IMG/VR virus record: IMGVR_UViG_3300009494_000003
Location: 1 to 56,638 of that record
Source of the DNA: a virus
Taxonomy: Duplodnaviria; Caudoviricetes
Direction: 5' to 3' (one strand)
DNA: 56,638 bases
Shown here: positions 23,463 to 29,561 of the stretch, piece by piece
Numbering within the stretch: position 1 is the first letter of the stretch
How the letters are laid out: every line of letters starts with the position of its first letter
The notes under the pieces: generated by a model
Databases searched by the model: none
Seen by the model: only the letters and a program-made list of their open reading frames with translations
What the model was told of the DNA's origin: nothing
Made by a program: the position numbers and the translations under genes

Positions 23463-24109
23463 AACACGAGTGGGTACTGGTAGTGGATGCGAAGGTCCTG
23501 AATGAATTTCGTGGTCTGGACGATGGGCCGATCACAACGCTCCGGGCAGATATTGATCGGATTGTCGGAATTCTTGGGCGCTCGTTTTTCATGGCGCGAA
23601 GCGAAGCCGAGGAGGCACCTGAATACAAGCAGGTCATCCCCTATCTGATTATCTCCTCGGGTAGTACGTTTTTGACGTATCGACGTTCTGGGTCCGAGAA
23701 GCGCCTTACGGATCTTGTTTCTATCGGCATCGGGGGACACATAAATCTGGAAGACAGCGACGAGCGCAAGCTGGATGTCATCAAGAAGAATGTCCGGCGA
23801 GAGGTCTCGGAGGAGCTGAGACTCGTGGGCGTACCCGAGTTCTGGCAGGAGTTTCCGGATTGTTTTGCCACGGTGGGCATTCTCTATGATGGTTCGGATG
23901 ACGTGGGTCGAGTCCATCTTGGGATCGTCTTGCGCTGTGATGTCAGTCTCGGCACGGCTCAGAAAATCCGGCTGACGAACGAGGGCAAGGATCTTGAATG
24001 GAAGACGCTCAAGGAACTTGAAGCGGGATACGAACACCTGGAGGGCTGGTCTCAGATTTGCGTCAAGGCGCTTCCGTCTTTTTGCGCAGCGGACGCGGGA
24101 ATGGGATGA
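23447..24109 (+). CDS. NUDIX-like phosphoesterase (COG4112/YmaB-like)
   Basis: AEEAPEYKQVIPY, EKRL, SIGIGGHIN, REVSEEL, VGRVHLG. Confidence 0.8.
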   Translation: MAKELKHEWVLVVDAKVLNEFRGLDDGPITTLRADIDRIVGILGRSFFMARSEAEEAPEYKQVIPYLIISSGSTFLTYRRSGSEKRLTDLVSIGIGGHINLEDSDERKLDVIKKNVRREVSEELRLVGVPEFWQEFPDCFATVGILYDGSDDVGRVHLGIVLRCDVSLGTAQKIRLTNEGKDLEWKTLKELEAGYEHLEGWSQICVKALPSFCAADAGMG

Positions 24110-24210
24110 TCTCGTTGAAGGAAAAAATCGTTGGCGCGTGCAGGGGTGGCGCGAGTGAGGCGAACATGAAGTACGCAGAAACGCAAAAACAACGGGAAGG
24201 GGAAGTGATG
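24106..24210 (+). repeat. Chimeric junction: dnaC 5' copy + UDG 3' copy + cassette junction motif
   Basis: 24106-24140 vs 27478-27512 (35 bp, 3 mismatches); 24135-24185 vs 16640-16690 (51 bp, 3 mismatches); 24192-24210 = 17479-17497 (19 bp). Confidence 0.9.
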
Positions 24211-25251
24211 GGTGCCGTTTATTACAACGATAATGATAAACATTGCTGCGATTGGCTGAGAAATCTGATTGATGCTGACTTGATTTCCGATGGTTATGTG
24301 GATGAGCGAGGAATTGAGGATGTGCGTTCTCTTGAAGAATTTGATCGGGTGCACCTGTTTGCAGGCATCGGCGGATGGGAATATGCACTTGACCTTGCTT
24401 GCTGGCCTTCAAACCTGAAGGTCATGACGGGAAGTTGTCCGTGTCAACCTTTCTCTATCGCAGGAAGGCAAAAAGGAGTTAAAGATGAACGACACCTCTG
24501 GCCAAAAATGCTCAGGCTCATTAAAGAGTCAGGAGTTAACTACATCTTTGGCGAACAAGTTGCAAGCCCTCTTGGAAGGGCATGGCTCGCCAGAGTACAA
24601 ACTGACTTGGAAGCAGTGGGTTATACCTTCGGGGCTTCGGATTTGTGCGCTGCGGGCATCGGTGCCCCACACATCCGTCAAAGACTGTACTGGGTGGCCT
24701 ACTACGACGGGCGAAGACGGAAAAACGGATGGCCCAAAAACAATGCAAAGAATGAAAATTTGTTTAGCACAGGGGAAGGTATTTCCAACGAGTGTACAAC
24801 GTCTTCGCAATATAGTTCAATTAACGGGATGGCCCACAGCGAGGGCGCAGGAAGATGGGCGAACGCTGGCACAGTACGCAAGTGCTCGGATGCGTGCATA
24901 CGAGAAACGAAAGGGGAAGACGCGGGATGGACCCTCCTCCAAACAAGGCGGCCTCTCGATTGCGGTTCAATTAACCTCTTCTCTCCCTGGAACGCCACCA
25001 CTCACATTCTCTGCGCAGACGGAAAAGCACGGCGTATTGAATCCGGCTCTGAGCCTTTGGTTACAGGGGTTCCCTTCCGATTGGCTGATGGCCGCACCCG
25101 TGAGGACGCCTCGCGGTCGCAAGTCCTCAAAGGCATAGGCAATAGCATCGTTCCGCTTCTGGCAGCGGTGTTTATACGGGCTTTCATGGAGAGCGTTGGT
25201 ATTTATCCGATAGGGGTAAAAGCGGGTGCCCAGGATCAGGAAGGTCAATGA
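24208..25251 (+). CDS. C5-cytosine DNA methyltransferase, alpha-type chain (motifs I, IV, VI, VIII, X); alternative in-frame start 24106
   Basis: LFAGIGG, GSCPCQPFS, GEQV, RQRLYWVA, LKGIGNSIVP. Confidence 0.85.
   Translation: MGAVYYNDNDKHCCDWLRNLIDADLISDGYVDERGIEDVRSLEEFDRVHLFAGIGGWEYALDLACWPSNLKVMTGSCPCQPFSIAGRQKGVKDERHLWPKMLRLIKESGVNYIFGEQVASPLGRAWLARVQTDLEAVGYTFGASDLCAAGIGAPHIRQRLYWVAYYDGRRRKNGWPKNNAKNENLFSTGEGISNECTTSSQYSSINGMAHSEGAGRWANAGTVRKCSDACIRETKGEDAGWTLLQTRRPLDCGSINLFSPWNATTHILCADGKARRIESGSEPLVTGVPFRLADGRTREDASRSQVLKGIGNSIVPLLAAVFIRAFMESVGIYPIGVKAGAQDQEGQ
24485..25138 (+). CDS. Overlapping alternative-frame C5-MTase beta-type chain (motif IX)
   Basis: Own RBS AAGGAG 6 nt before ATG; GWPT repeats and 'LNPALSLWLQGFPSDW' (motif IX-like), which the main frame lacks. 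Confidence 0.7.
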   Translation: MNDTSGQKCSGSLKSQELTTSLANKLQALLEGHGSPEYKLTWKQWVIPSGLRICALRASVPHTSVKDCTGWPTTTGEDGKTDGPKTMQRMKICLAQGKVFPTSVQRLRNIVQLTGWPTARAQEDGRTLAQYASARMRAYEKRKGKTRDGPSSKQGGLSIAVQLTSSLPGTPPLTFSAQTEKHGVLNPALSLWLQGFPSDWLMAAPVRTPRGRKSSKA

Positions 25252-25322
25252 CCTCGTTGAAGGAAAAAATCGTTTTAAGTTGCAACACGATGTATTTGTG
25301 CCACATCCGAGGAGAAGCATGA
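25248..25322 (+). CDS. 24-aa mini-ORF from duplicated dnaC start, coupling MTase 1 to MTase 2
   Basis: MTSLKEKIVLSCNTMYLCHIRGEA*; ATGA overlaps at both ends. Confidence 0.45.
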   Translation: MTSLKEKIVLSCNTMYLCHIRGEA

Positions 25323-27481
25323 GGGGTACATTATTCACAGGTGACTGCGTGCAGATCATGGAGACCATGGATGAGAGTTCCGTGGACGCGGTTGTGACCG
25401 ATCCTCCCTATGGATTGGAGTTCATGGGCCGGGAGTTTGATAAGCTCGGTAAGGGTACGGCACAGAGGGCGTGGCATGCACGGTGGGCGAAGCAGGCCCT
25501 GCGAGTCTTGAAACCCGGGGGTTATCTACTCGCGTTTGGGGGCACCAGAACTTATCATCATCTGGCGACTGCCGTGGAGGAAGCCGGGTTTGAGATCCGT
25601 GATATGATCCAGTGGAATTATGGGTCGGGATTTCCCAAATCGTTGAATATTGGGAAGGCGATTGACAAGGCGGCGGGGGTGGAGCGTGAGGTGATTGGGC
25701 ATGAAAGCAAGATACCGGAGCGACCCATAACGGACAATTGGAAGCGGGCTGCAACAACTCCAACCGAAATGCCGCTGCCGGGTCAAGGAAGCAATTCAGG
25801 GTGTGTCCGTATCATAACCGCCCCCGCAACCGAAGCCGCGAAGCAATGGGACGGATGGGGCACGGCGTTGAAGCCCGCAAACGAGCCAATCTTATGGGCA
25901 ACAAAGCCCCTGATTGTGGTTCCCCCAGGTGATATGATACAGGCAGCCAACCTGATTGGAGGTTTGATATGCCTGTCACTATCATCTGTGAAACATGTGG
26001 AGAGTCTTTTGATGTCAAGCCCTAACGGGTGCGAAGGGGATGTCGCTTTTGCTCTATGGCGTGCCGTCGAGTATCGTTCAAGCGAATTTCCAGAGTCATC
26101 AGGGGTGACGGATATGTTCAAATCACCGGAGGTGGCAGAAACTATCTTGAACATCGTCAAGTTATGGCGGATAGTTTGGGACGCAAACTTCGCACGGCAG
26201 AACACGTTCACCACATCAATGGCGACAGGGCTGACAACCGAATTGAAAACCTTCGTATCATTGATGTTGCCGATCATACAAGAATGCATCACCCCGGCAG
26301 GCATGAAGGCACTTGGTCAACCCTCGTATGTGAACATTGCGAGATCGAATTTGAGCGAGCAAACATCTACATCCAACGCCGTAACTTCTGCTCACGAGCT
26401 TGCTACGTTGCTCATGGGGCGAAATGGTGCGAGCGATGTGGGGCAGAGTTTCACGCATGCGGCACACGTCGCAAGTACTGTTCTGCAAAATGCTACCACG
26501 AGTCTAGGCGAAAATCTTAGTCCCGCCCATGAACCAATTGTTGTAGCCAGGAAGCCCTTGAGCGAGAAGACCGTGGCGGCGAACGTGTTGAAGCATGGGA
26601 CAGGCGGGATCAACATTGATGGGTGTAGGGTGGAAATTTCTTCTAACGATGTCATATATGCTAAGAATCCTCACACACAAAATACAGGCTCAAAAAACAG
26701 TAGTTCAATAACACTGGGTGAGGGAGCAAGTTACAAAGTACCCAAAGGTCGCTGGCCTGCGAACGTTTTATTTTCGCACCATCCAGATTGCGAATGTGTT
26801 GGGACGAAGAAGGTGAAGGGTAGTCAGCTGTCTCAGGTTATCAAGCGGAGTAATAGCGGTAGTGAATCAATAGGTAAACAGACGGACAGTTATTGCGAAG
26901 GTTTTACAGACGATGACGGCAACGAAGAAGTAGAAGCTTGGAATTGTCACCCTGATTGTCCGGTGGGGGTCCTGGACAAGCAGAGTGGAGTATTGAAGAG
27001 TGGAAAGCCAACTAAGGGAAAAGAGGAAACGACCAAAGATATTTATGGGAAATATGCAAAACGCTCCTTAGTTGGTGGAGGGGATTCTGGTGGTGCCTCC
27101 CGCTTTTTCTACCAGGCCAAGGCGAGTAGGTCCGAGCGGAACGTAGGCACTGAGGATCTCTTTTGGAGGAGGACGAAGGAGACTCCAAGTGGATACACGC
27201 AAGTCACGCGAGAGGAATGGGAGGTCCTGGATGAGAAGAAGCGTGCGGTGGGCAACATTCACAGCACGGTGAAGCCGGTCGACCTTATCGGGTATTTGAT
27301 CCGGCTCGTGGTTCCCCCAGGTGGAATCGTACTCGATCCTTTTTGCGGCTCAGGCACGGTGTTCCCTGCGGCAGTCAAAGAACAGGTCAAGGTGTTGGCC
27401 ATAGAGAAGGACGAACAGTACTCGGTAATCTCAGAAGCCAGGGCCTCCCATGCGTTTGCGCAGGATCAGGAAGGTCAATGA
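25319..27481 (+). CDS. beta-class amino (N6A/N4C) DNA methyltransferase with 216-aa in-frame insertion
   Basis: RBS GAGGAG; TDPPY; GWGTALKPA; HSTVKP; VLDPFCGSGT; insertion between duplicated PAxEPIxxAxKPL motifs. Confidence 0.85.
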   Translation: MRGTLFTGDCVQIMETMDESSVDAVVTDPPYGLEFMGREFDKLGKGTAQRAWHARWAKQALRVLKPGGYLLAFGGTRTYHHLATAVEEAGFEIRDMIQWNYGSGFPKSLNIGKAIDKAAGVEREVIGHESKIPERPITDNWKRAATTPTEMPLPGQGSNSGCVRIITAPATEAAKQWDGWGTALKPANEPILWATKPLIVVPPGDMIQAANLIGGLICLSLSSVKHVESLLMSSPNGCEGDVAFALWRAVEYRSSEFPESSGVTDMFKSPEVAETILNIVKLWRIVWDANFARQNTFTTSMATGLTTELKTFVSLMLPIIQECITPAGMKALGQPSYVNIARSNLSEQTSTSNAVTSAHELATLLMGRNGASDVGQSFTHAAHVASTVLQNATTSLGENLSPAHEPIVVARKPLSEKTVAANVLKHGTGGINIDGCRVEISSNDVIYAKNPHTQNTGSKNSSSITLGEGASYKVPKGRWPANVLFSHHPDCECVGTKKVKGSQLSQVIKRSNSGSESIGKQTDSYCEGFTDDDGNEEVEAWNCHPDCPVGVLDKQSGVLKSGKPTKGKEETTKDIYGKYAKRSLVGGGDSGGASRFFYQAKASRSERNVGTEDLFWRRTKETPSGYTQVTREEWEVLDEKKRAVGNIHSTVKPVDLIGYLIRLVVPPGGIVLDPFCGSGTVFPAAVKEQVKVLAIEKDEQYSVISEARASHAFAQDQEGQ
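25969..26520 (+). pseudogene. Zn-finger/HNH homing endonuclease nested out of frame in the MTase; in-frame TAA at codon 19 (possible restart at GTG 26029)
   Basis: Extended -10 TGnTATGAT (25930-25938), RBS GGAGG, ATG 25969; CETC..FCSMAC, EHRQVMA..LGRKL..EHVHHINGDRADNRIENL, two more CxxC..CSxxC fingers; TAA 26023-26025. Confidence 0.8.
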
Positions 27482-28215
27482 CCTCATTGAAGGAAAAAAT
27501 CGTGGGCGCGTGTCGCGTCTGTGGCGGCGACGGTTACGAGGGCAACCGGCTTTGCAACTGTTCGATCAAGTTCAGGGTGTACAACCGTCTTGTCGATAAC
27601 GGGTTTAACGAGAGCCTGCTGGATCTGGTCAGCTCACCCGCGTACACGTTGCCCATGCTGGAAACCGGGTCTGAATCGATAAATTATTTTTTACATCATC
27701 CGTTTGACGTGATGGACAAGGGCTTGAGCCTCTACATCCTCTCGAAAGAGAATGGGCGGGGCAAGACGACCCTGGCCCATTATCTCGTTTATGTGCTGGC
27801 GTGGCCGTTCGCCCAGACCGAGAATTACAACCGGAGGCGTACGTACGCGTTTGTGGATATGCATGCGCTCCTGGAGTCATTCTTGGGCGGTGATGAGATG
27901 CACAACACGTGGAAGGCCACGGTGCTGGTGCTCGACGATTTGGGCAGTGAGAGCCGCTCGGCGGCGTGGAAGATCGATACGGCCACGTCAATGCTCCACC
28001 GTATTCTCCATTACCGACGTGATCGGAGGCTGCCGACAATCATTACCTCGAACTTTGTTGCCGAGAGCCTTACGGGCTTTTACAATGGCGTTCTTGACTC
28101 GGTGCTGGAGATCAGGCCTGACGGTGTGATCGGTGGCCAGGTCTTCCGCCAGGTTGAGGTCGGTGGTGGCGAGGATTTTCGCATTGCGCACGGCTCAAGT
28201 GACTGGCCAACTTGA
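27478..28215 (+). CDS. DnaC/IstB-like helicase loader ATPase
   Basis: CRVC..CNC; NGRGKTT; LVLDDLG; RR..LPTIITSN. Confidence 0.8.
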   Translation: MTSLKEKIVGACRVCGGDGYEGNRLCNCSIKFRVYNRLVDNGFNESLLDLVSSPAYTLPMLETGSESINYFLHHPFDVMDKGLSLYILSKENGRGKTTLAHYLVYVLAWPFAQTENYNRRRTYAFVDMHALLESFLGGDEMHNTWKATVLVLDDLGSESRSAAWKIDTATSMLHRILHYRRDRRLPTIITSNFVAESLTGFYNGVLDSVLEIRPDGVIGGQVFRQVEVGGGEDFRIAHGSSDWPT

Positions 28216-29561
28216 TGCAGATTGATGTCAAAGTCGAGGCCGAATTTCTGGCCTCCATTCTCCAGGGCAAGAACATCGTAGAGCCCGACGTGCTGAGGTT
28301 TGTCGAGCCCGAGTATTTCCAGGTCGAATCGTATCAGTGGCTTGTCCAGCTCCTGAAGGAGCGCGAGTGGAAGCCCCTGGTGTTCGATTACCTTGACCAG
28401 GAGCTGCTTGCGTTGAAGGAAGACGAGACGCGGGAGAAGCACCGCAACCAGTTGTACGCCCTGTATGTTCGGGAATTGTCGTTCGCTGAGGATGCGGCGG
28501 ACAAGTTCAGGGCCTATGTTTCGTTTTGTGTCGTCAATTCCCGGGTGCGTGGGGCTTTTGAGGGCTTTGCGCGCACCGACCGTATCGATTTTCTTCTCGA
28601 TGAGATCGGGGACGCGACCCATGAGGCCAGGGACGTGGTGCGCGTCAATGCTCTGCCTGTGATTGATCTTGCGGATAATTACCTGGAGCGACAACACCTG
28701 CGACAACACCTGCGAGATAACCCGGCCATGAATCCCCGGTTGCTGACGGGCATTGTGGGTCTCGACCAGCAGTTTATTATTCGTGCTCCCATGCTGGTCG
28801 ATTTCCTGGCCCCGTTCAAGCGCTACAAGAGTATCTTTCTCAACGCACTCGGCTACGCGTTGCTTCTCCAGGGCCATGACGTTCTGCACGTCACGTACGA
28901 AAATTCGATAGAGTTGACGATGGATCGCTACGACTCAATGTTCTCGGAGCTGAATTATGATCGGATTTCGAATATGCTCATTACGCAGGAGGAGCGCGCT
29001 GCGCTTGACCAGACGTTTGCGTGGATGAAGCAGTGGAAGAACCGGTTGAAGGTTGTCAAGGGCGTTGCCAATAAGACGACGGTTGCGGAAGTGGAGGAGG
29101 AGGTCGAGCGCCTTCGGGACCGTCAGGGTTTTTCCGCGACTGTCGAGATCTGGGATTATTTGAACATCATAGCCCCATCCAAAGAGTTTCATCAGGAACG
29201 TCATGAGCAGAAACAGATCGTGTGGGACCTGAAGGTTCATGCCGAGAAATATGGGGTTGCAGTCATCGAAGCGAGTCAGGCGAACATGGTGGGTGTGCAG
29301 GCCGATAGACTGGATTTGAGTCACCGGGGGTTGTCAACGGACATCTCCCGTGGAATCGATTTGTGCATCGCAATCGACCAGACCGAGGATGAGAAGGAAG
29401 AAGGGATTATCGTGTTGTCTCCACAGTTTGTCAGGGGCGGGGCCATAACTATACCGGAGATAGTCCTAGATTCCGATTTGCCTCGGATGGTTGTGAGCCG
29501 TGAATTGCATCGCCTTTGGGAGCACGCTGCACGAATAAATCCTTATATTTCAACAGATTAG
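28215..29561 (+). CDS. DnaB-like replicative helicase with atypical Walker A
   Basis: LLTGIVGLD, APFKRYKS, VTYEN, WDYLNII, ASQAN; lies between loader and primase. Confidence 0.75.
   Translation: MQIDVKVEAEFLASILQGKNIVEPDVLRFVEPEYFQVESYQWLVQLLKEREWKPLVFDYLDQELLALKEDETREKHRNQLYALYVRELSFAEDAADKFRAYVSFCVVNSRVRGAFEGFARTDRIDFLLDEIGDATHEARDVVRVNALPVIDLADNYLERQHLRQHLRDNPAMNPRLLTGIVGLDQQFIIRAPMLVDFLAPFKRYKSIFLNALGYALLLQGHDVLHVTYENSIELTMDRYDSMFSELNYDRISNMLITQEERAALDQTFAWMKQWKNRLKVVKGVANKTTVAEVEEEVERLRDRQGFSATVEIWDYLNIIAPSKEFHQERHEQKQIVWDLKVHAEKYGVAVIEASQANMVGVQADRLDLSHRGLSTDISRGIDLCIAIDQTEDEKEEGIIVLSPQFVRGGAITIPEIVLDSDLPRMVVSRELHRLWEHAARINPYISTD

What the first reader, a model, noticed from the sequence alone, without database searches (positions are those of the whole stretch)
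25871..26561. HNH endonuclease gene overprinted inside a methyltransferase: an insertion that keeps the host frame open with no sign of splicing
Seen: the MTase motif KPAxEPIxxAxKPL occurs twice, 648 bp apart (KPANEPILWATKPL at 25871, SPAHEPIVVARKPL at 26519). The 216 codons between are stop-free in the MTase frame but are T/S-rich with no recognisable motifs. Another frame carries a full expression unit: extended -10, GGAGG, ATG 25969, Zn fingers and an HNH (HHINGDRADNRIENL), ending TAG 26520 right at the second copy. There is no intein N-terminal C/S block or terminal HN-C/S/T motif, and no obvious intron structure. The HNH frame has a TAA at codon 19 while the host frame stays open. Inference: a homing endonuclease that spares its host by dual coding, as a tolerated loop or via ribosome bypass or non-canonical splicing between the duplicated sites, now decaying while the host frame is kept.
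Basis: partly seen in the sequence, partly recalled or inferred. Interest (0 to 1): 0.85.

Follow-up and report, generated by a model that had tools for sequence, protein, structure and literature searches.

The report
Hidden HNH gene inside phage methylase
A phage DNA methyltransferase gene carries a mobile HNH endonuclease gene written in another reading frame, while the methyltransferase frame stays stop-free through it; this odd arrangement was first described in 2025, and this is a new, slightly broken member of it.

Summary
The PF01555 methyltransferase (MTase) ORF, 25319-27481, holds a 216-codon stop-free insert (25883-26530) between two copies of its motif-VIII peptide. Frame +2 carries an HNH_3 gene (ATG 25969, TAG 26520) broken by TAA at 26023.

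It is not unique. It is a homologue of the published "ShiLan domain" (Arsenault, Gosselin and Gogarten, Genes 2025, PMC11855218): an out-of-frame HNH inserted at the same MTase site. The window's HNH is 39% identical to ShiLan's (E=5e-27).

Searching by the HNH frame gave 55 strong loci, 39 non-identical:
- All lie inside an MTase ORF at this site.
- All have 0 stops in the MTase frame (69.5 expected from synonymous shuffles); free-standing relatives have 72.
- Only the HNH frame shows amino-acid conservation. The MTase frame shows stop avoidance alone (NTA before a purine: 0 of 948).
- 38 of 40 HNH genes are intact.

No Rfam family or intein domain was found. AlphaFold2 puts the second motif copy in the fold and leaves the first copy unstructured at low confidence.

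Best reading: a splicing-free homing element translated through as a tolerated loop, here with a recently inactivated nuclease. This is a new member of a known kind.

The neighbouring C5 MTase gene has a conserved +1-frame ORF, like M.EcoHK31I alpha/beta.

The parts
25319..27481 (+). Host gene: N6/N4 DNA methyltransferase ORF (720 aa). It has DPPY near the N-terminus and FCGSGT near the C-terminus, and is read straight through the insert.
   Evidence: Pfam PF01555 E=6.7e-33 in two stretches. A profile built from 46 insert-less MTases matches on both sides of the insert, E=2.2e-199.
25871..25912 (+). Motif-VIII peptide copy 1 (KPANEPILWATKPL). The part from E onward belongs to the element.
   Evidence: The model gives pLDDT under 50 and no secondary structure for residues 182-199.
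25883..26530 (+). The inserted element, delimited as in the ShiLan paper: 648 nt, 216 codons, stop-free in the MTase frame.
   Evidence: Insert-less homologues join ...KPAN directly to EPI..ARKPL. The MTase profile restarts about 14 positions back after the insert. Length confirmed.
25958..25962 (+). Shine-Dalgarno-like GGAGG, 6 nt before the HNH start codon.
   Evidence: A GGAG-type core 6-8 nt before the start I chose is found in 24 of 38 family loci.
25969..26520 (+). HNH endonuclease gene in frame +2 of the MTase (183 codons): a zinc ribbon, the HNH core, then two more zinc ribbons. It is interrupted by one stop.
   Evidence: Pfam HNH_3 E=2.4e-8. 64% identical to the intact L011 copy. 39% identical to the ShiLan HNH, E=5e-27. 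It is the only HNH match in the record.
26023..26025 (+). Premature TAA at HNH codon 19, inside the first zinc ribbon. The MTase frame reads the same bases as Pro-Asn.
   Evidence: Intact homologues have K, I or S at this position.
26519..26560 (+). Motif-VIII peptide copy 2 (SPAHEPIVVARKPL). The part from E onward is the native host sequence. The HNH stop codon overlaps its first codon.
   Evidence: Modelled as strand 403-411 with pLDDT 83-94.

Best explanation
This is a ShiLan-type, splicing-free homing element. An HNH endonuclease gene with its own ribosome-binding site sits inside a phage orphan DNA methyltransferase gene, in the coding sequence of motif VIII, at the border between the catalytic domain and the target-recognition region.

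How the host gene is spared (inferred from selection patterns):
- The element is never removed. Ribosomes translating the MTase read through it in the MTase frame and produce about 200 residues of unselected, loop-like peptide.
- The element also carries its own copy of the half-motif it displaced, so a complete motif VIII exists on each side of the loop.
- Selection keeps the MTase frame free of stops by restricting synonymous codon choice in the HNH gene.

How it spreads (inferred, not shown): the nuclease is translated from the internal GGAGG-ATG in frame +2. It probably cuts or nicks insert-less MTase alleles of co-infecting phages, so that repair copies the element in.

In this window the nuclease has a nonsense codon at position 19. 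This copy is therefore probably immobile, while the MTase frame remains intact.

Shown here: the anatomy, the homology, the common insertion site, the stop avoidance, which frame is conserved, and the patchy distribution. Inferred: MTase activity with the loop, internal initiation, and homing.
For: 1. Anatomy as described.
2. Same site and homologous nuclease as the published ShiLan element: WGTALKPSY / EPVCVAVKPYG ... / EPIVVARKPL in L003 with the HNH in frame +2; HNH 39% identical, E=5e-27.
3. Loci fetched by an HNH-frame profile are blind to the MTase frame. All 56 loci L016-L071 have 0 stops in the MTase frame and an open frame of 274-1105 aa across the HNH. All 18 weak, free-standing relatives (L072-L089) have 1-10 stops.
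4. In 40 non-identical loci, synonymous shuffles expect 69.5 stops and 0 are seen. In 17 controls, 62.4 are expected and 72 are seen.
5. Codon level: NTA codons before a purine-initial codon number 0 of 948, against 10.5% of 504 before a pyrimidine-initial codon. Mean nucleotide difference at HNH codon positions 1/2/3 is 0.397/0.345/0.579. Amino-acid identity is 0.53 in the HNH frame, 0.308 in the MTase frame and 0.293 in the third frame.
6. All 40 open frames match a profile of insert-less MTases. 37 of 40 match on both sides; the other 3 are cut by a contig end. In most loci the profile ends near position 192 and restarts near 177-182, so the site and the duplication are shared.
7. 38 of 40 HNH genes have no internal stop. 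A GGAG-type core lies 6-8 nt before the start in 24 of 38.
8. No Rfam match at E<=10 in 25000-27600. No intein or other Pfam family in the in-frame insert or the whole protein.
9. AlphaFold2 (63-sequence alignment, mean pLDDT 69.5): copy 2 is a confident strand; copy 1 is unstructured at low confidence; the insert is helical at pLDDT 36-80.
10. On a tree of the flanks only, the insert (17 of 63 rows) needs at least 9 gains or losses, with at least 6 forced by well-supported branches. The window's nearest rows are insert-less.
Against: - No experiment or expression data bear on this. No RNA holder was listed, and the one DNA run covers only 26217-26429.
- For this window alone the open frame is not significant (P about 0.14).
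- The 40 loci are related, and some are close relatives (for example L026, L028, L032, L034), so they are not 40 independent trials.
- The AlphaFold2 choice of copy 2 may simply follow the alignment, in which insert-less sequences align to copy 2.
- The insert label is clustered on the tree: 9 changes against 15 in shuffles, with 0 of 500 shuffles as low. Vertical descent therefore explains part of the distribution, and the count cannot tell gains from precise losses.
- The rows of that tree were my own pick of 62 of 119 listed homologues.
- HNH start codons were chosen by me, and 14 of 38 loci lack a GGAG core.
- Whether a 216-residue loop leaves the MTase active is unknown.
Confidence: 0.8

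Rival explanations
1. The insert is removed after all, by something not yet catalogued: an unrecognised self-splicing RNA, ribosomal bypass from copy 1 to copy 2, or protein-level excision using the duplicated motif copies. The mature MTase would then lack the loop.
For: The two motif copies flank the insert exactly, which recalls take-off and landing sites or exon-like repeats. The ShiLan authors note that group I introns often resemble their 3' exon at the 5' end. Nothing here measures the RNA or the protein.
Against: - RNA splicing or bypass would put no selection on the reading frame. Yet the insert is stop-free and a multiple of three in every locus, with codon-level stop avoidance.
- No Rfam family at E<=10. 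The paper's RNAweasel and fold analyses were also negative.
- Only 86 nt precede the HNH ORF and 10 nt follow it inside the insert, which leaves little room for a ribozyme core.
- For protein splicing: no Hint or intein Pfam hit. The in-frame peptide is no better conserved than the third frame, 0.308 against 0.293, so it cannot encode a conserved splicing domain.
Confidence: 0.06
2. The nuclease is not a homing enzyme but a domesticated partner of the MTase. It could, for example, be an exclusion or restriction-like nuclease that cuts competitor or host DNA lacking the phage's methylation. The nested arrangement would then be kept to co-express the two.
For: - 38 of 40 HNH genes are intact and under purifying selection, more than expected for a purely selfish element late in its cycle.
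- The pairing with one MTase family at one site is constant.
- The ShiLan paper itself raises the idea of the HNH as a module used by the phage.
Against: - Patchy presence among close MTase relatives, with insert-less alleles at the same site, is the classic homing pattern.
- The position inside a conserved motif, with a duplicated target half, fits target-site disruption.
- This window and L071 tolerate a broken HNH while keeping the MTase frame.
Confidence: 0.1
3. The MTase is dead or split here. The long ORF would be a by-product, and the gene either no longer makes a working enzyme or makes two separately translated halves.
For: A 216-residue insertion next to motif VIII could well inactivate an enzyme. 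The ShiLan authors point out that this MTase is dispensable in relatives of their phage. Homing-endonuclease insertions that split a gene into two working pieces are known (recalled from memory, not checked here).
Against: - A dead gene would accumulate stops. None is seen in about 6,900 insert codons, nor in the flanks of 40 loci.
- Catalytic and AdoMet motifs are kept.
- A split gene needs neither an open frame nor an in-phase insert.
Confidence: 0.04

Closest known systems
ShiLan domain: hidden out-of-frame HNH insertion in the DNA methylase of mycobacteriophage ShiLan gp65 and relatives (Arsenault, Gosselin, Gogarten, Genes 2025, PMC11855218; first seen in Gosselin et al., Genes 2023, PMC9957025)
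   Same: - Same MTase family and the same insertion point in motif VIII.
- No stop in the MTase frame.
- HNH with flanking zinc ribbons in the third frame, and a homologous nuclease (39% identity, E=5e-27).
- The start of the insert repeats the roughly 11 residues that follow the site.
- No intron or intein signature, a loop-like model and a disjunct distribution.
I read sections 1, 3 and 4, the legends and tables of the 2025 paper. Of the 2023 paper I saw only the search listing.
   Different: - This copy is in an uncultured, non-actinophage virus record with about 50% G+C.
- The HNH starts 86 nt into the insert at ATG behind a GGAGG. ShiLan's starts 18 nt in at GTG with no ribosome-binding site, which led its authors to propose leaderless initiation.
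- The insert is 216 codons here against 202.
- The nuclease is broken by a TAA here.
- The paper reports 9 BLASTP hits for the in-frame peptide, all phage MTases, and the words 'metagenom' and 'selection' do not occur in it. The 39 metagenomic or viral loci, the shuffle test and the codon-position analysis are new here.
Inteins with a homing endonuclease domain
   Same: An in-frame, stop-free insertion at a conserved site of a phage gene, translated together with the host protein and spread by a nuclease.
   Different: - No Hint or splicing domain.
- The nuclease is in another frame and is made as a separate protein.
- The in-frame peptide is unconserved.
- There is no sign that it is removed.
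Group I introns carrying HNH ORFs in phage genes (for example I-HmuI; I-PfoP3I, seen only as the listing of PMC3428280)
   Same: An HNH homing gene interrupting a conserved phage gene, with similarity between the 5' end of the insert and the downstream exon.
   Different: No ribozyme was detected. The host frame is kept open and in phase, which an intron does not need.
Free-standing homing endonuclease genes that split a host gene into two working ORFs (mobE in the Aeromonas phage Aeh1 nrdA gene; recalled from memory, not read here)
   Same: A homing-endonuclease insertion without a splicing element that the host gene survives.
   Different: There the host gene becomes two polypeptides. Here it stays one ORF, and the nuclease is nested in another frame.

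Membership tests
ShiLan-type out-of-frame HNH insertion element | Inserted in a PF01555 phage DNA methylase within the conserved ...ALKPxx / EPxxxARKP... motif | tested here: met
   Window KPAN/EPI... against ShiLan KPSY/EPV.... Insert-less homologues are contiguous at this point. The profile breaks at the same position in all loci with both flanks.
ShiLan-type out-of-frame HNH insertion element | The insert adds no stop and keeps phase when read in the methylase frame | tested here: met
   216 codons, 0 stops. The same holds in all 56 loci L016-L071.
ShiLan-type out-of-frame HNH insertion element | The third frame encodes an HNH endonuclease with flanking zinc-finger or zinc-ribbon motifs, homologous to ShiLan's | tested here: met
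   HNH_3 E=2.4e-8. CxxC...FCSxxC repeats are present. BLASTP against the ShiLan HNH gives 39% identity, E=5e-27.
ShiLan-type out-of-frame HNH insertion element | The first residues of the insert repeat the residues that follow the insertion site | tested here: met
   EPILWATKPL against EPIVVARKPL. The whole 14-residue copies match at 9 of 14 residues and 26 of 42 nt. The profile overlap of about 14 positions is seen across the family.
ShiLan-type out-of-frame HNH insertion element | No recognisable intron or intein | tested here: met
   Rfam search by E-value: 0 matches at E<=10. Pfam: 0 families for the in-frame insert at E<=0.1.
ShiLan-type out-of-frame HNH insertion element | Disjunct (homing-like) distribution among related methylases | tested here: met
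   17 insert rows of 63 need at least 9 changes, with at least 6 forced by starred branches. The window's closest flanks are insert-less. Gains cannot be told from losses.
ShiLan-type out-of-frame HNH insertion element | Intact, active homing nuclease | tested here: not met
   TAA at codon 19 (26023-26025). Activity cannot be tested with these tools. This makes the window's copy a degenerate member, not a non-member.
Group I / group II intron | Conserved ribozyme core detectable by covariance models | tested here: not met
   0 Rfam matches at E<=10 on both strands of 25000-27600.
Intein | Hint-fold splicing blocks in the host frame, with a nucleophile at +1 | tested here: not met
   No intein or Hint Pfam family in the 720-aa protein or the insert. 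The residue after the insert is E. The in-frame peptide is conserved no better than the third frame.
Gene split by a free-standing homing endonuclease gene | The host gene is broken into two separately translated ORFs | tested here: not met
   One continuous ORF, 25319-27481.

The most novel reading that the evidence does not exclude
The duplicated motif-VIII copies may be the handles of an uncatalogued excision step rather than leftovers. After read-through translation, the loop between copy 1 and copy 2 would be removed or swapped out at the protein level, by host or MTase-borne chemistry rather than by an insert-encoded Hint domain. That would make this a third kind of spliced homing element beside introns and inteins. 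The evidence requires translation through the insert but says nothing about what happens to the peptide afterwards.
Probability: 0.04. Interest if true: 0.9.

Novelty: new member of a known kind. Interest (0 to 1): 0.45.

Why it matters
Homing endonuclease genes are thought to survive inside essential or useful genes only by hitching to a self-splicing intron or intein, or by sitting between genes. The ShiLan-type element shows a third way: stay in the gene, be read in another frame, and keep the host frame open.

This window and the 39 other non-identical loci collected here take the element well beyond the handful of mycobacteriophages in which it was described. They add three things:
- Evidence for selection to keep the MTase frame open: no stop in about 6,900 insert codons, achieved by avoiding particular synonymous codons.
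- Many members have an ordinary Shine-Dalgarno-led start, which removes the need for the leaderless-initiation idea proposed for mycobacteria.
- Natural copies with a dead nuclease and a live host frame.

There is a practical point too. Gene callers report only the long MTase ORF, so these nucleases are invisible in annotation. The in-frame 'domain' pollutes protein databases as if it were a real domain.

Tried and rejected
- A single-sequence search with the window's 163-aa HNH in viral contigs gave 7 loci. The two I opened (L004, L006) were free-standing HNH genes in other contexts, so I switched to alignments.
- The first alignment (A2, MTase-frame inserts) is biased towards open frames. 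I used it only to get DNA for an HNH-frame alignment.
- The genome-contig scan with the HNH profile returned no confirmed locus.
- Blastn of 24000-29000 against phages found no close relative. The best hits were 4-6% of the query at 66-73% identity.
- Reads: one DNA run holds 16% of the sampled words. Laid at 85% likeness, it gives one 213-nt contig on 26217-26429 and three short, unlike pieces. The TAA, the junctions and a possible misassembly could not be checked. No RNA holder was listed.
- The promoter scan found no sigma-70-like site in 25200-27600. It is a consensus scan and does not exclude a promoter.
- The model of the +1-frame protein of the neighbouring C5 MTase gene was poor (mean pLDDT 62, pTM 0.28), so I did not run a fold search on it.
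- I first considered that this +1 ORF might be a by-product of conservation in the main frame, or a frameshift-expressed target-recognition region (TRD). The phase profile and the M.EcoHK31I passage make an overlapping second subunit the better reading. I did not test homology to M.EcoHK31I itself.
- Three literature searches on overlapping genes and cytosine methyltransferases found nothing on N15-like genes.
Supplements of papers were not available and may hold the ShiLan authors' wider hit lists.
- Rows dropped: L059 (a 99-nt match at a contig end, E=4e-6). Exact duplicates (16 of the 56 loci L016-L071) from the same calls. L046 and L053 (cut before the start codon). For alignment A4 and its tree I picked 62 of the 119 listed homologues by hand, mostly those under about 720 aa, with all clear insert types I had seen.
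Full report
WHAT IS THERE

The window is a 56.6-kb linear virus record, estimated 31% complete. It carries phage-type replication genes: helicase, DnaC-like loader, DnaB-like helicase, DNA polymerase and an SbcC-like nuclease.

The ORF at 25319-27481 (720 aa, ATG behind AGGAG) is an N6/N4 DNA methyltransferase (PF01555, E=6.7e-33, matched in two stretches). The peptide KPANEPILWATKPL lies at 25871-25912 and SPAHEPIVVARKPL at 26519-26560. They match at 9 of 14 residues and 26 of 42 bases. Between them the MTase frame has no stop. Frame +1 has 18 stops over 25871-26560.

Frame +2 holds GGAGG (25958-25962), ATG 25969, TAA at 26023-26025 and TAG at 26518-26520. Its product matches HNH_3 (E=2.4e-8) and has CxxC...FCSxxC zinc ribbons before and after the HNH core. 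The in-frame insert matches no Pfam family at E<=0.1. Only 'T/S-rich' (20.3% against 14.1% S+T) and the promoter (no two-hexamer match) are weaker than stated.

IT IS A FAMILY

A search with the whole MTase scored 8,000 candidates and listed the best 120. In 27 of those 120 the motif pattern occurs twice. By eye, 4 of them (P0002, P0024, P0054, P0075) are duplications of the whole target-recognition segment. The other 23, counting the window's own protein, carry an insert like the window's.

Aligned, insert-less homologues join ...ALKPAN directly to EPI..ARKPL. The residues conserved in the MTase-frame insert (CLSLS, MFKSPE, NTFTTS, LTTAL) lie exactly over HNH-frame motifs (ICxxCG, DGYVQIT, HVHHxNG, DNRIENL), as searches show when read together. 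Protein databases hold only called ORFs, so these hits are biased towards open frames.

AN UNBIASED TEST

I fetched DNA with the MTase-frame insert alignment and read the HNH frame from it; the nuclease is intact in L011, L013 and L015. I then built an HNH-frame alignment and searched DNA collections with that. This returned 44 metagenome loci, 30 viral loci and none from genomes.

- All 56 loci L016-L071 (55 strong HNH matches and the weak L059) have 0 stops in the MTase frame across the HNH match, with an open frame of 274-1105 aa spanning it. The third frame has 4-23 stops.
- All 18 weak matches (L072-L089, free-standing HNH genes) have 1-10 stops in the corresponding frame.
- After removing exact duplicates and L059, 39 loci plus the window remain.
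- Shuffling synonymous codons within each HNH gene predicts 69.5 stops in the MTase frame in all; 0 are seen. The per-locus chance of zero ranges from 0.0015 to 0.59, and is 0.14 for the window.
- In the 17 controls 62.4 stops are predicted and 72 seen.

The loci are related to one another, so these are not independent trials. They are, however, 45-65% identical in the nuclease, far enough apart for an unselected frame to have closed.

WHICH FRAME IS SELECTED, AND HOW

An MTase codon consists of HNH codon positions 2 and 3 plus position 1 of the next codon.

- Mean pairwise nucleotide difference is 0.397, 0.345 and 0.579 at HNH positions 1, 2 and 3.
- Amino-acid identity is 0.53 in the HNH frame, 0.308 in the MTase frame and 0.293 in the third frame.

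The nuclease is therefore under ordinary purifying selection. The MTase-frame peptide is no better conserved than a frame nobody reads. The one visible constraint from the MTase frame is stop avoidance: NTA codons are 0 of 948 when the next codon starts with a purine, against 10.5% of 504 otherwise. NTG drops from 21% to 14%.

SAME SITE EVERYWHERE

A profile built from 46 insert-less MTases matches all 40 open frames (E<=5e-26). It matches on both sides of the nuclease in 37; the other 3 are cut by a contig end. In most loci the upstream match ends near profile position 192 and the downstream match restarts near 177-182. The insertion point and the duplication of about 14 residues are therefore shared (peptides).

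STATE OF THE NUCLEASE

38 of 40 HNH genes have no internal stop. The exceptions are the window (26023) and L071. Where the window has TAA, intact copies have K, I or S. The HNH core is unchanged, so the lesion is recent, or possibly a sequencing error that I could not check.

A GTG 3 nt after the TAA (26029) opens a 163-codon ORF, so re-initiation is conceivable but untested.

A GGAG-type core lies 6-8 nt before the start codon I chose in 24 of 38 family loci, and is absent in ShiLan. No other HNH relative lies in the record.

NOT AN INTRON OR AN INTEIN

Rfam gave no match at E<=10 on either strand of 25000-27600. No intein or Hint family matched. Inside the insert only 86 nt precede the HNH ORF and 10 nt follow it.

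STRUCTURE MODEL

AlphaFold2 on a 63-sequence alignment gave mean pLDDT 69.5 and pTM 0.58. Residues 182-199 (copy 1) are below 50 and unstructured. Residues 403-411 (copy 2) form a strand at pLDDT 83-94. The insert is helical at pLDDT 36-80. This fits a loop hanging between the last strand of the catalytic domain and the recognition region. The choice of copy 2 may reflect the alignment.

MOBILITY

The flanks of the window's MTase are closest to insert-less proteins (P0023, P0049, P0034: 56-57% N-terminal and 49-51% C-terminal identity). The proteins with the most similar insert (P0003, P0011, P0004) have less similar flanks.

On a tree of the flanks alone, 17 insert-bearing rows of 63 need at least 9 changes, with at least 6 forced by starred branches. 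Shuffled labels need 15, so the trait is also partly inherited. The rows were my selection.

ALREADY PUBLISHED

A literature search found Arsenault, Gosselin and Gogarten, Genes 2025 (PMC11855218). I read its introduction, results, discussion, legends and tables. Their 'ShiLan domain' has these features:
- a 202-aa, stop-free insert in the DNA methylase of mycobacteriophage ShiLan and relatives;
- its first 11 residues repeat the 11 that follow the site;
- its third frame encodes a 195-aa HNH with zinc fingers;
- no intron or intein could be found;
- a loop-like model and a disjunct distribution.

ShiLan gp65 was among my first tblastn hits. In L003 the site reads ...WGTALKPSY / EPVCVAVKPYG ... 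/ EPIVVARKPLAGTVAANV with the HNH in frame +2. The two nucleases are 39% identical (E=5e-27). The window's element is thus a distant member of that family.

What differs here:
- the setting is a non-actinophage virus;
- the start is a Shine-Dalgarno-led ATG 86 nt into the insert, against a GTG at 18 nt with no ribosome-binding site;
- the insert has 216 codons;
- the nuclease is broken.

The paper reports 9 database hits for the in-frame peptide and contains neither 'metagenom' nor 'selection'. Only two papers in the library use the term 'ShiLan domain'.

MECHANISM AND RIVALS

Best reading (0.8): a splicing-free homing element. The MTase is translated through it as one polypeptide with a tolerated loop, and the nuclease is made separately from an internal start. 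Selection on the host gene shows up only as stop avoidance. In this window the nuclease is probably dead.

Rivals:
- Removal by an unknown splicing or bypass step (0.06). This is hard to square with frame maintenance and with an unconserved in-frame peptide.
- A domesticated nuclease working with the MTase (0.10).
- A dead or split MTase (0.04).

None of the functional steps has been measured.

SEEN IN PASSING

The C5 methyltransferase gene just upstream (24208-25251; PF00145, phrog_363; 36% identical to N15 gp58) contains a second ORF in frame +1. It starts at ATG 24485, ends at 25138, and its open stretch is 236 codons.

- That frame matches phrog_1008 and phrog_31772.
- By tblastn it matches 208 phage records. 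In N15 and Pseudomonas phage 5399 the match is in the +1 frame of the annotated gene.
- 80 viral loci were fetched by peptides of the main frame. Together with the window, N15 and the Pseudomonas phage, 82 sequences were non-identical. All 82 have a +1 frame open for at least 219 codons (median 300). The +2 frame never exceeds 118.
- In 88 close pairs drawn from 20 loci, the most variable codon position is position 3 of the main frame at both ends of the gene. It switches to position 1 (position 3 of the +1 frame) across the recognition region, with mixed signals on either side of that region.
- The +1 product ends in LNPxxSxWLxGxPxxW, which resembles motif IX as I recall it.

[quoted passage not shown] I did not test homology to M.EcoHK31I.

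A 52-nt direct repeat at 24080, 25222 and 27452 brackets both methyltransferase genes.

Noticed in passing
window 24208-25251 (+); nested ORF 24485-25138 in frame +1: The neighbouring C5 cytosine MTase gene (N15 gp58-like, phrog_363) holds a long second ORF in its +1 frame. That frame is open for at least 219 codons in all 82 non-identical homologous loci, against a maximum of 118 in frame +2. It matches phrog_1008 and phrog_31772. Codon-position variability switches to the +1 frame across the recognition region in 88 close pairs. This looks like the M.EcoHK31I alpha/beta arrangement, where the beta chain with motif IX is encoded in another frame of alpha (PMC2836561, passage read). It is annotated as a single gene in N15 and other phages..
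   Followed up: partly
window 24080-24131, 25222-25273, 27452-27503: A 52-nt direct repeat (65-92% identity) lies before the C5 MTase gene, between the two MTase genes and after the N6/N4 MTase gene. Each copy spans a stop codon and the start of the next ORF (ATGACCTC.TTGAAGGAAAAAATCGT). The two MTase genes therefore look like cassettes inserted by recombination at the 5' end of the DnaC-like loader gene.
   Followed up: no
proteins P0002, P0024, P0054, P0075 (homologues of the window's MTase): These MTases also have two copies of the motif-VIII peptide, 149-209 residues apart. What lies between them is a second full target-recognition segment (GTGG.N.DGCR ... GGASRFF), not an HNH insert. They are tandem TRD duplications at the same motif (judged by eye).
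   Followed up: no
L022, L035, L047, L032, L034, L057 (metagenome loci): In several HNH-bearing MTase genes the MTase-frame ORF is 718-1105 aa long, with further gaps of 100-300 residues between profile matches upstream of the HNH site. These may be additional in-frame insertions; the ShiLan papers report an intein and a LAGLIDADG insert in this MTase family.
   Followed up: no
L081 / L082 2309-2659 and 2501-2851: A free-standing HNH relative has 0 stops in its +2 frame over 117 codons, where 4.8 are expected from shuffles. This may be another overlapping frame, or chance.
   Followed up: no
window 25909-25940 and 27301-27332: The 32 nt just after motif copy 1 (encoding LIVVPPGDMI) are 78% identical to the MTase's own stretch encoding RLVVPPGGIVL before the FCGSGT motif. 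Other family members have TVVP here. The meaning is unknown.
   Followed up: no
L071 2501-2947 (stop at 2705): This is the second family member with a broken HNH frame and an intact 634-aa MTase frame, a natural parallel to the window's state.
   Followed up: partly
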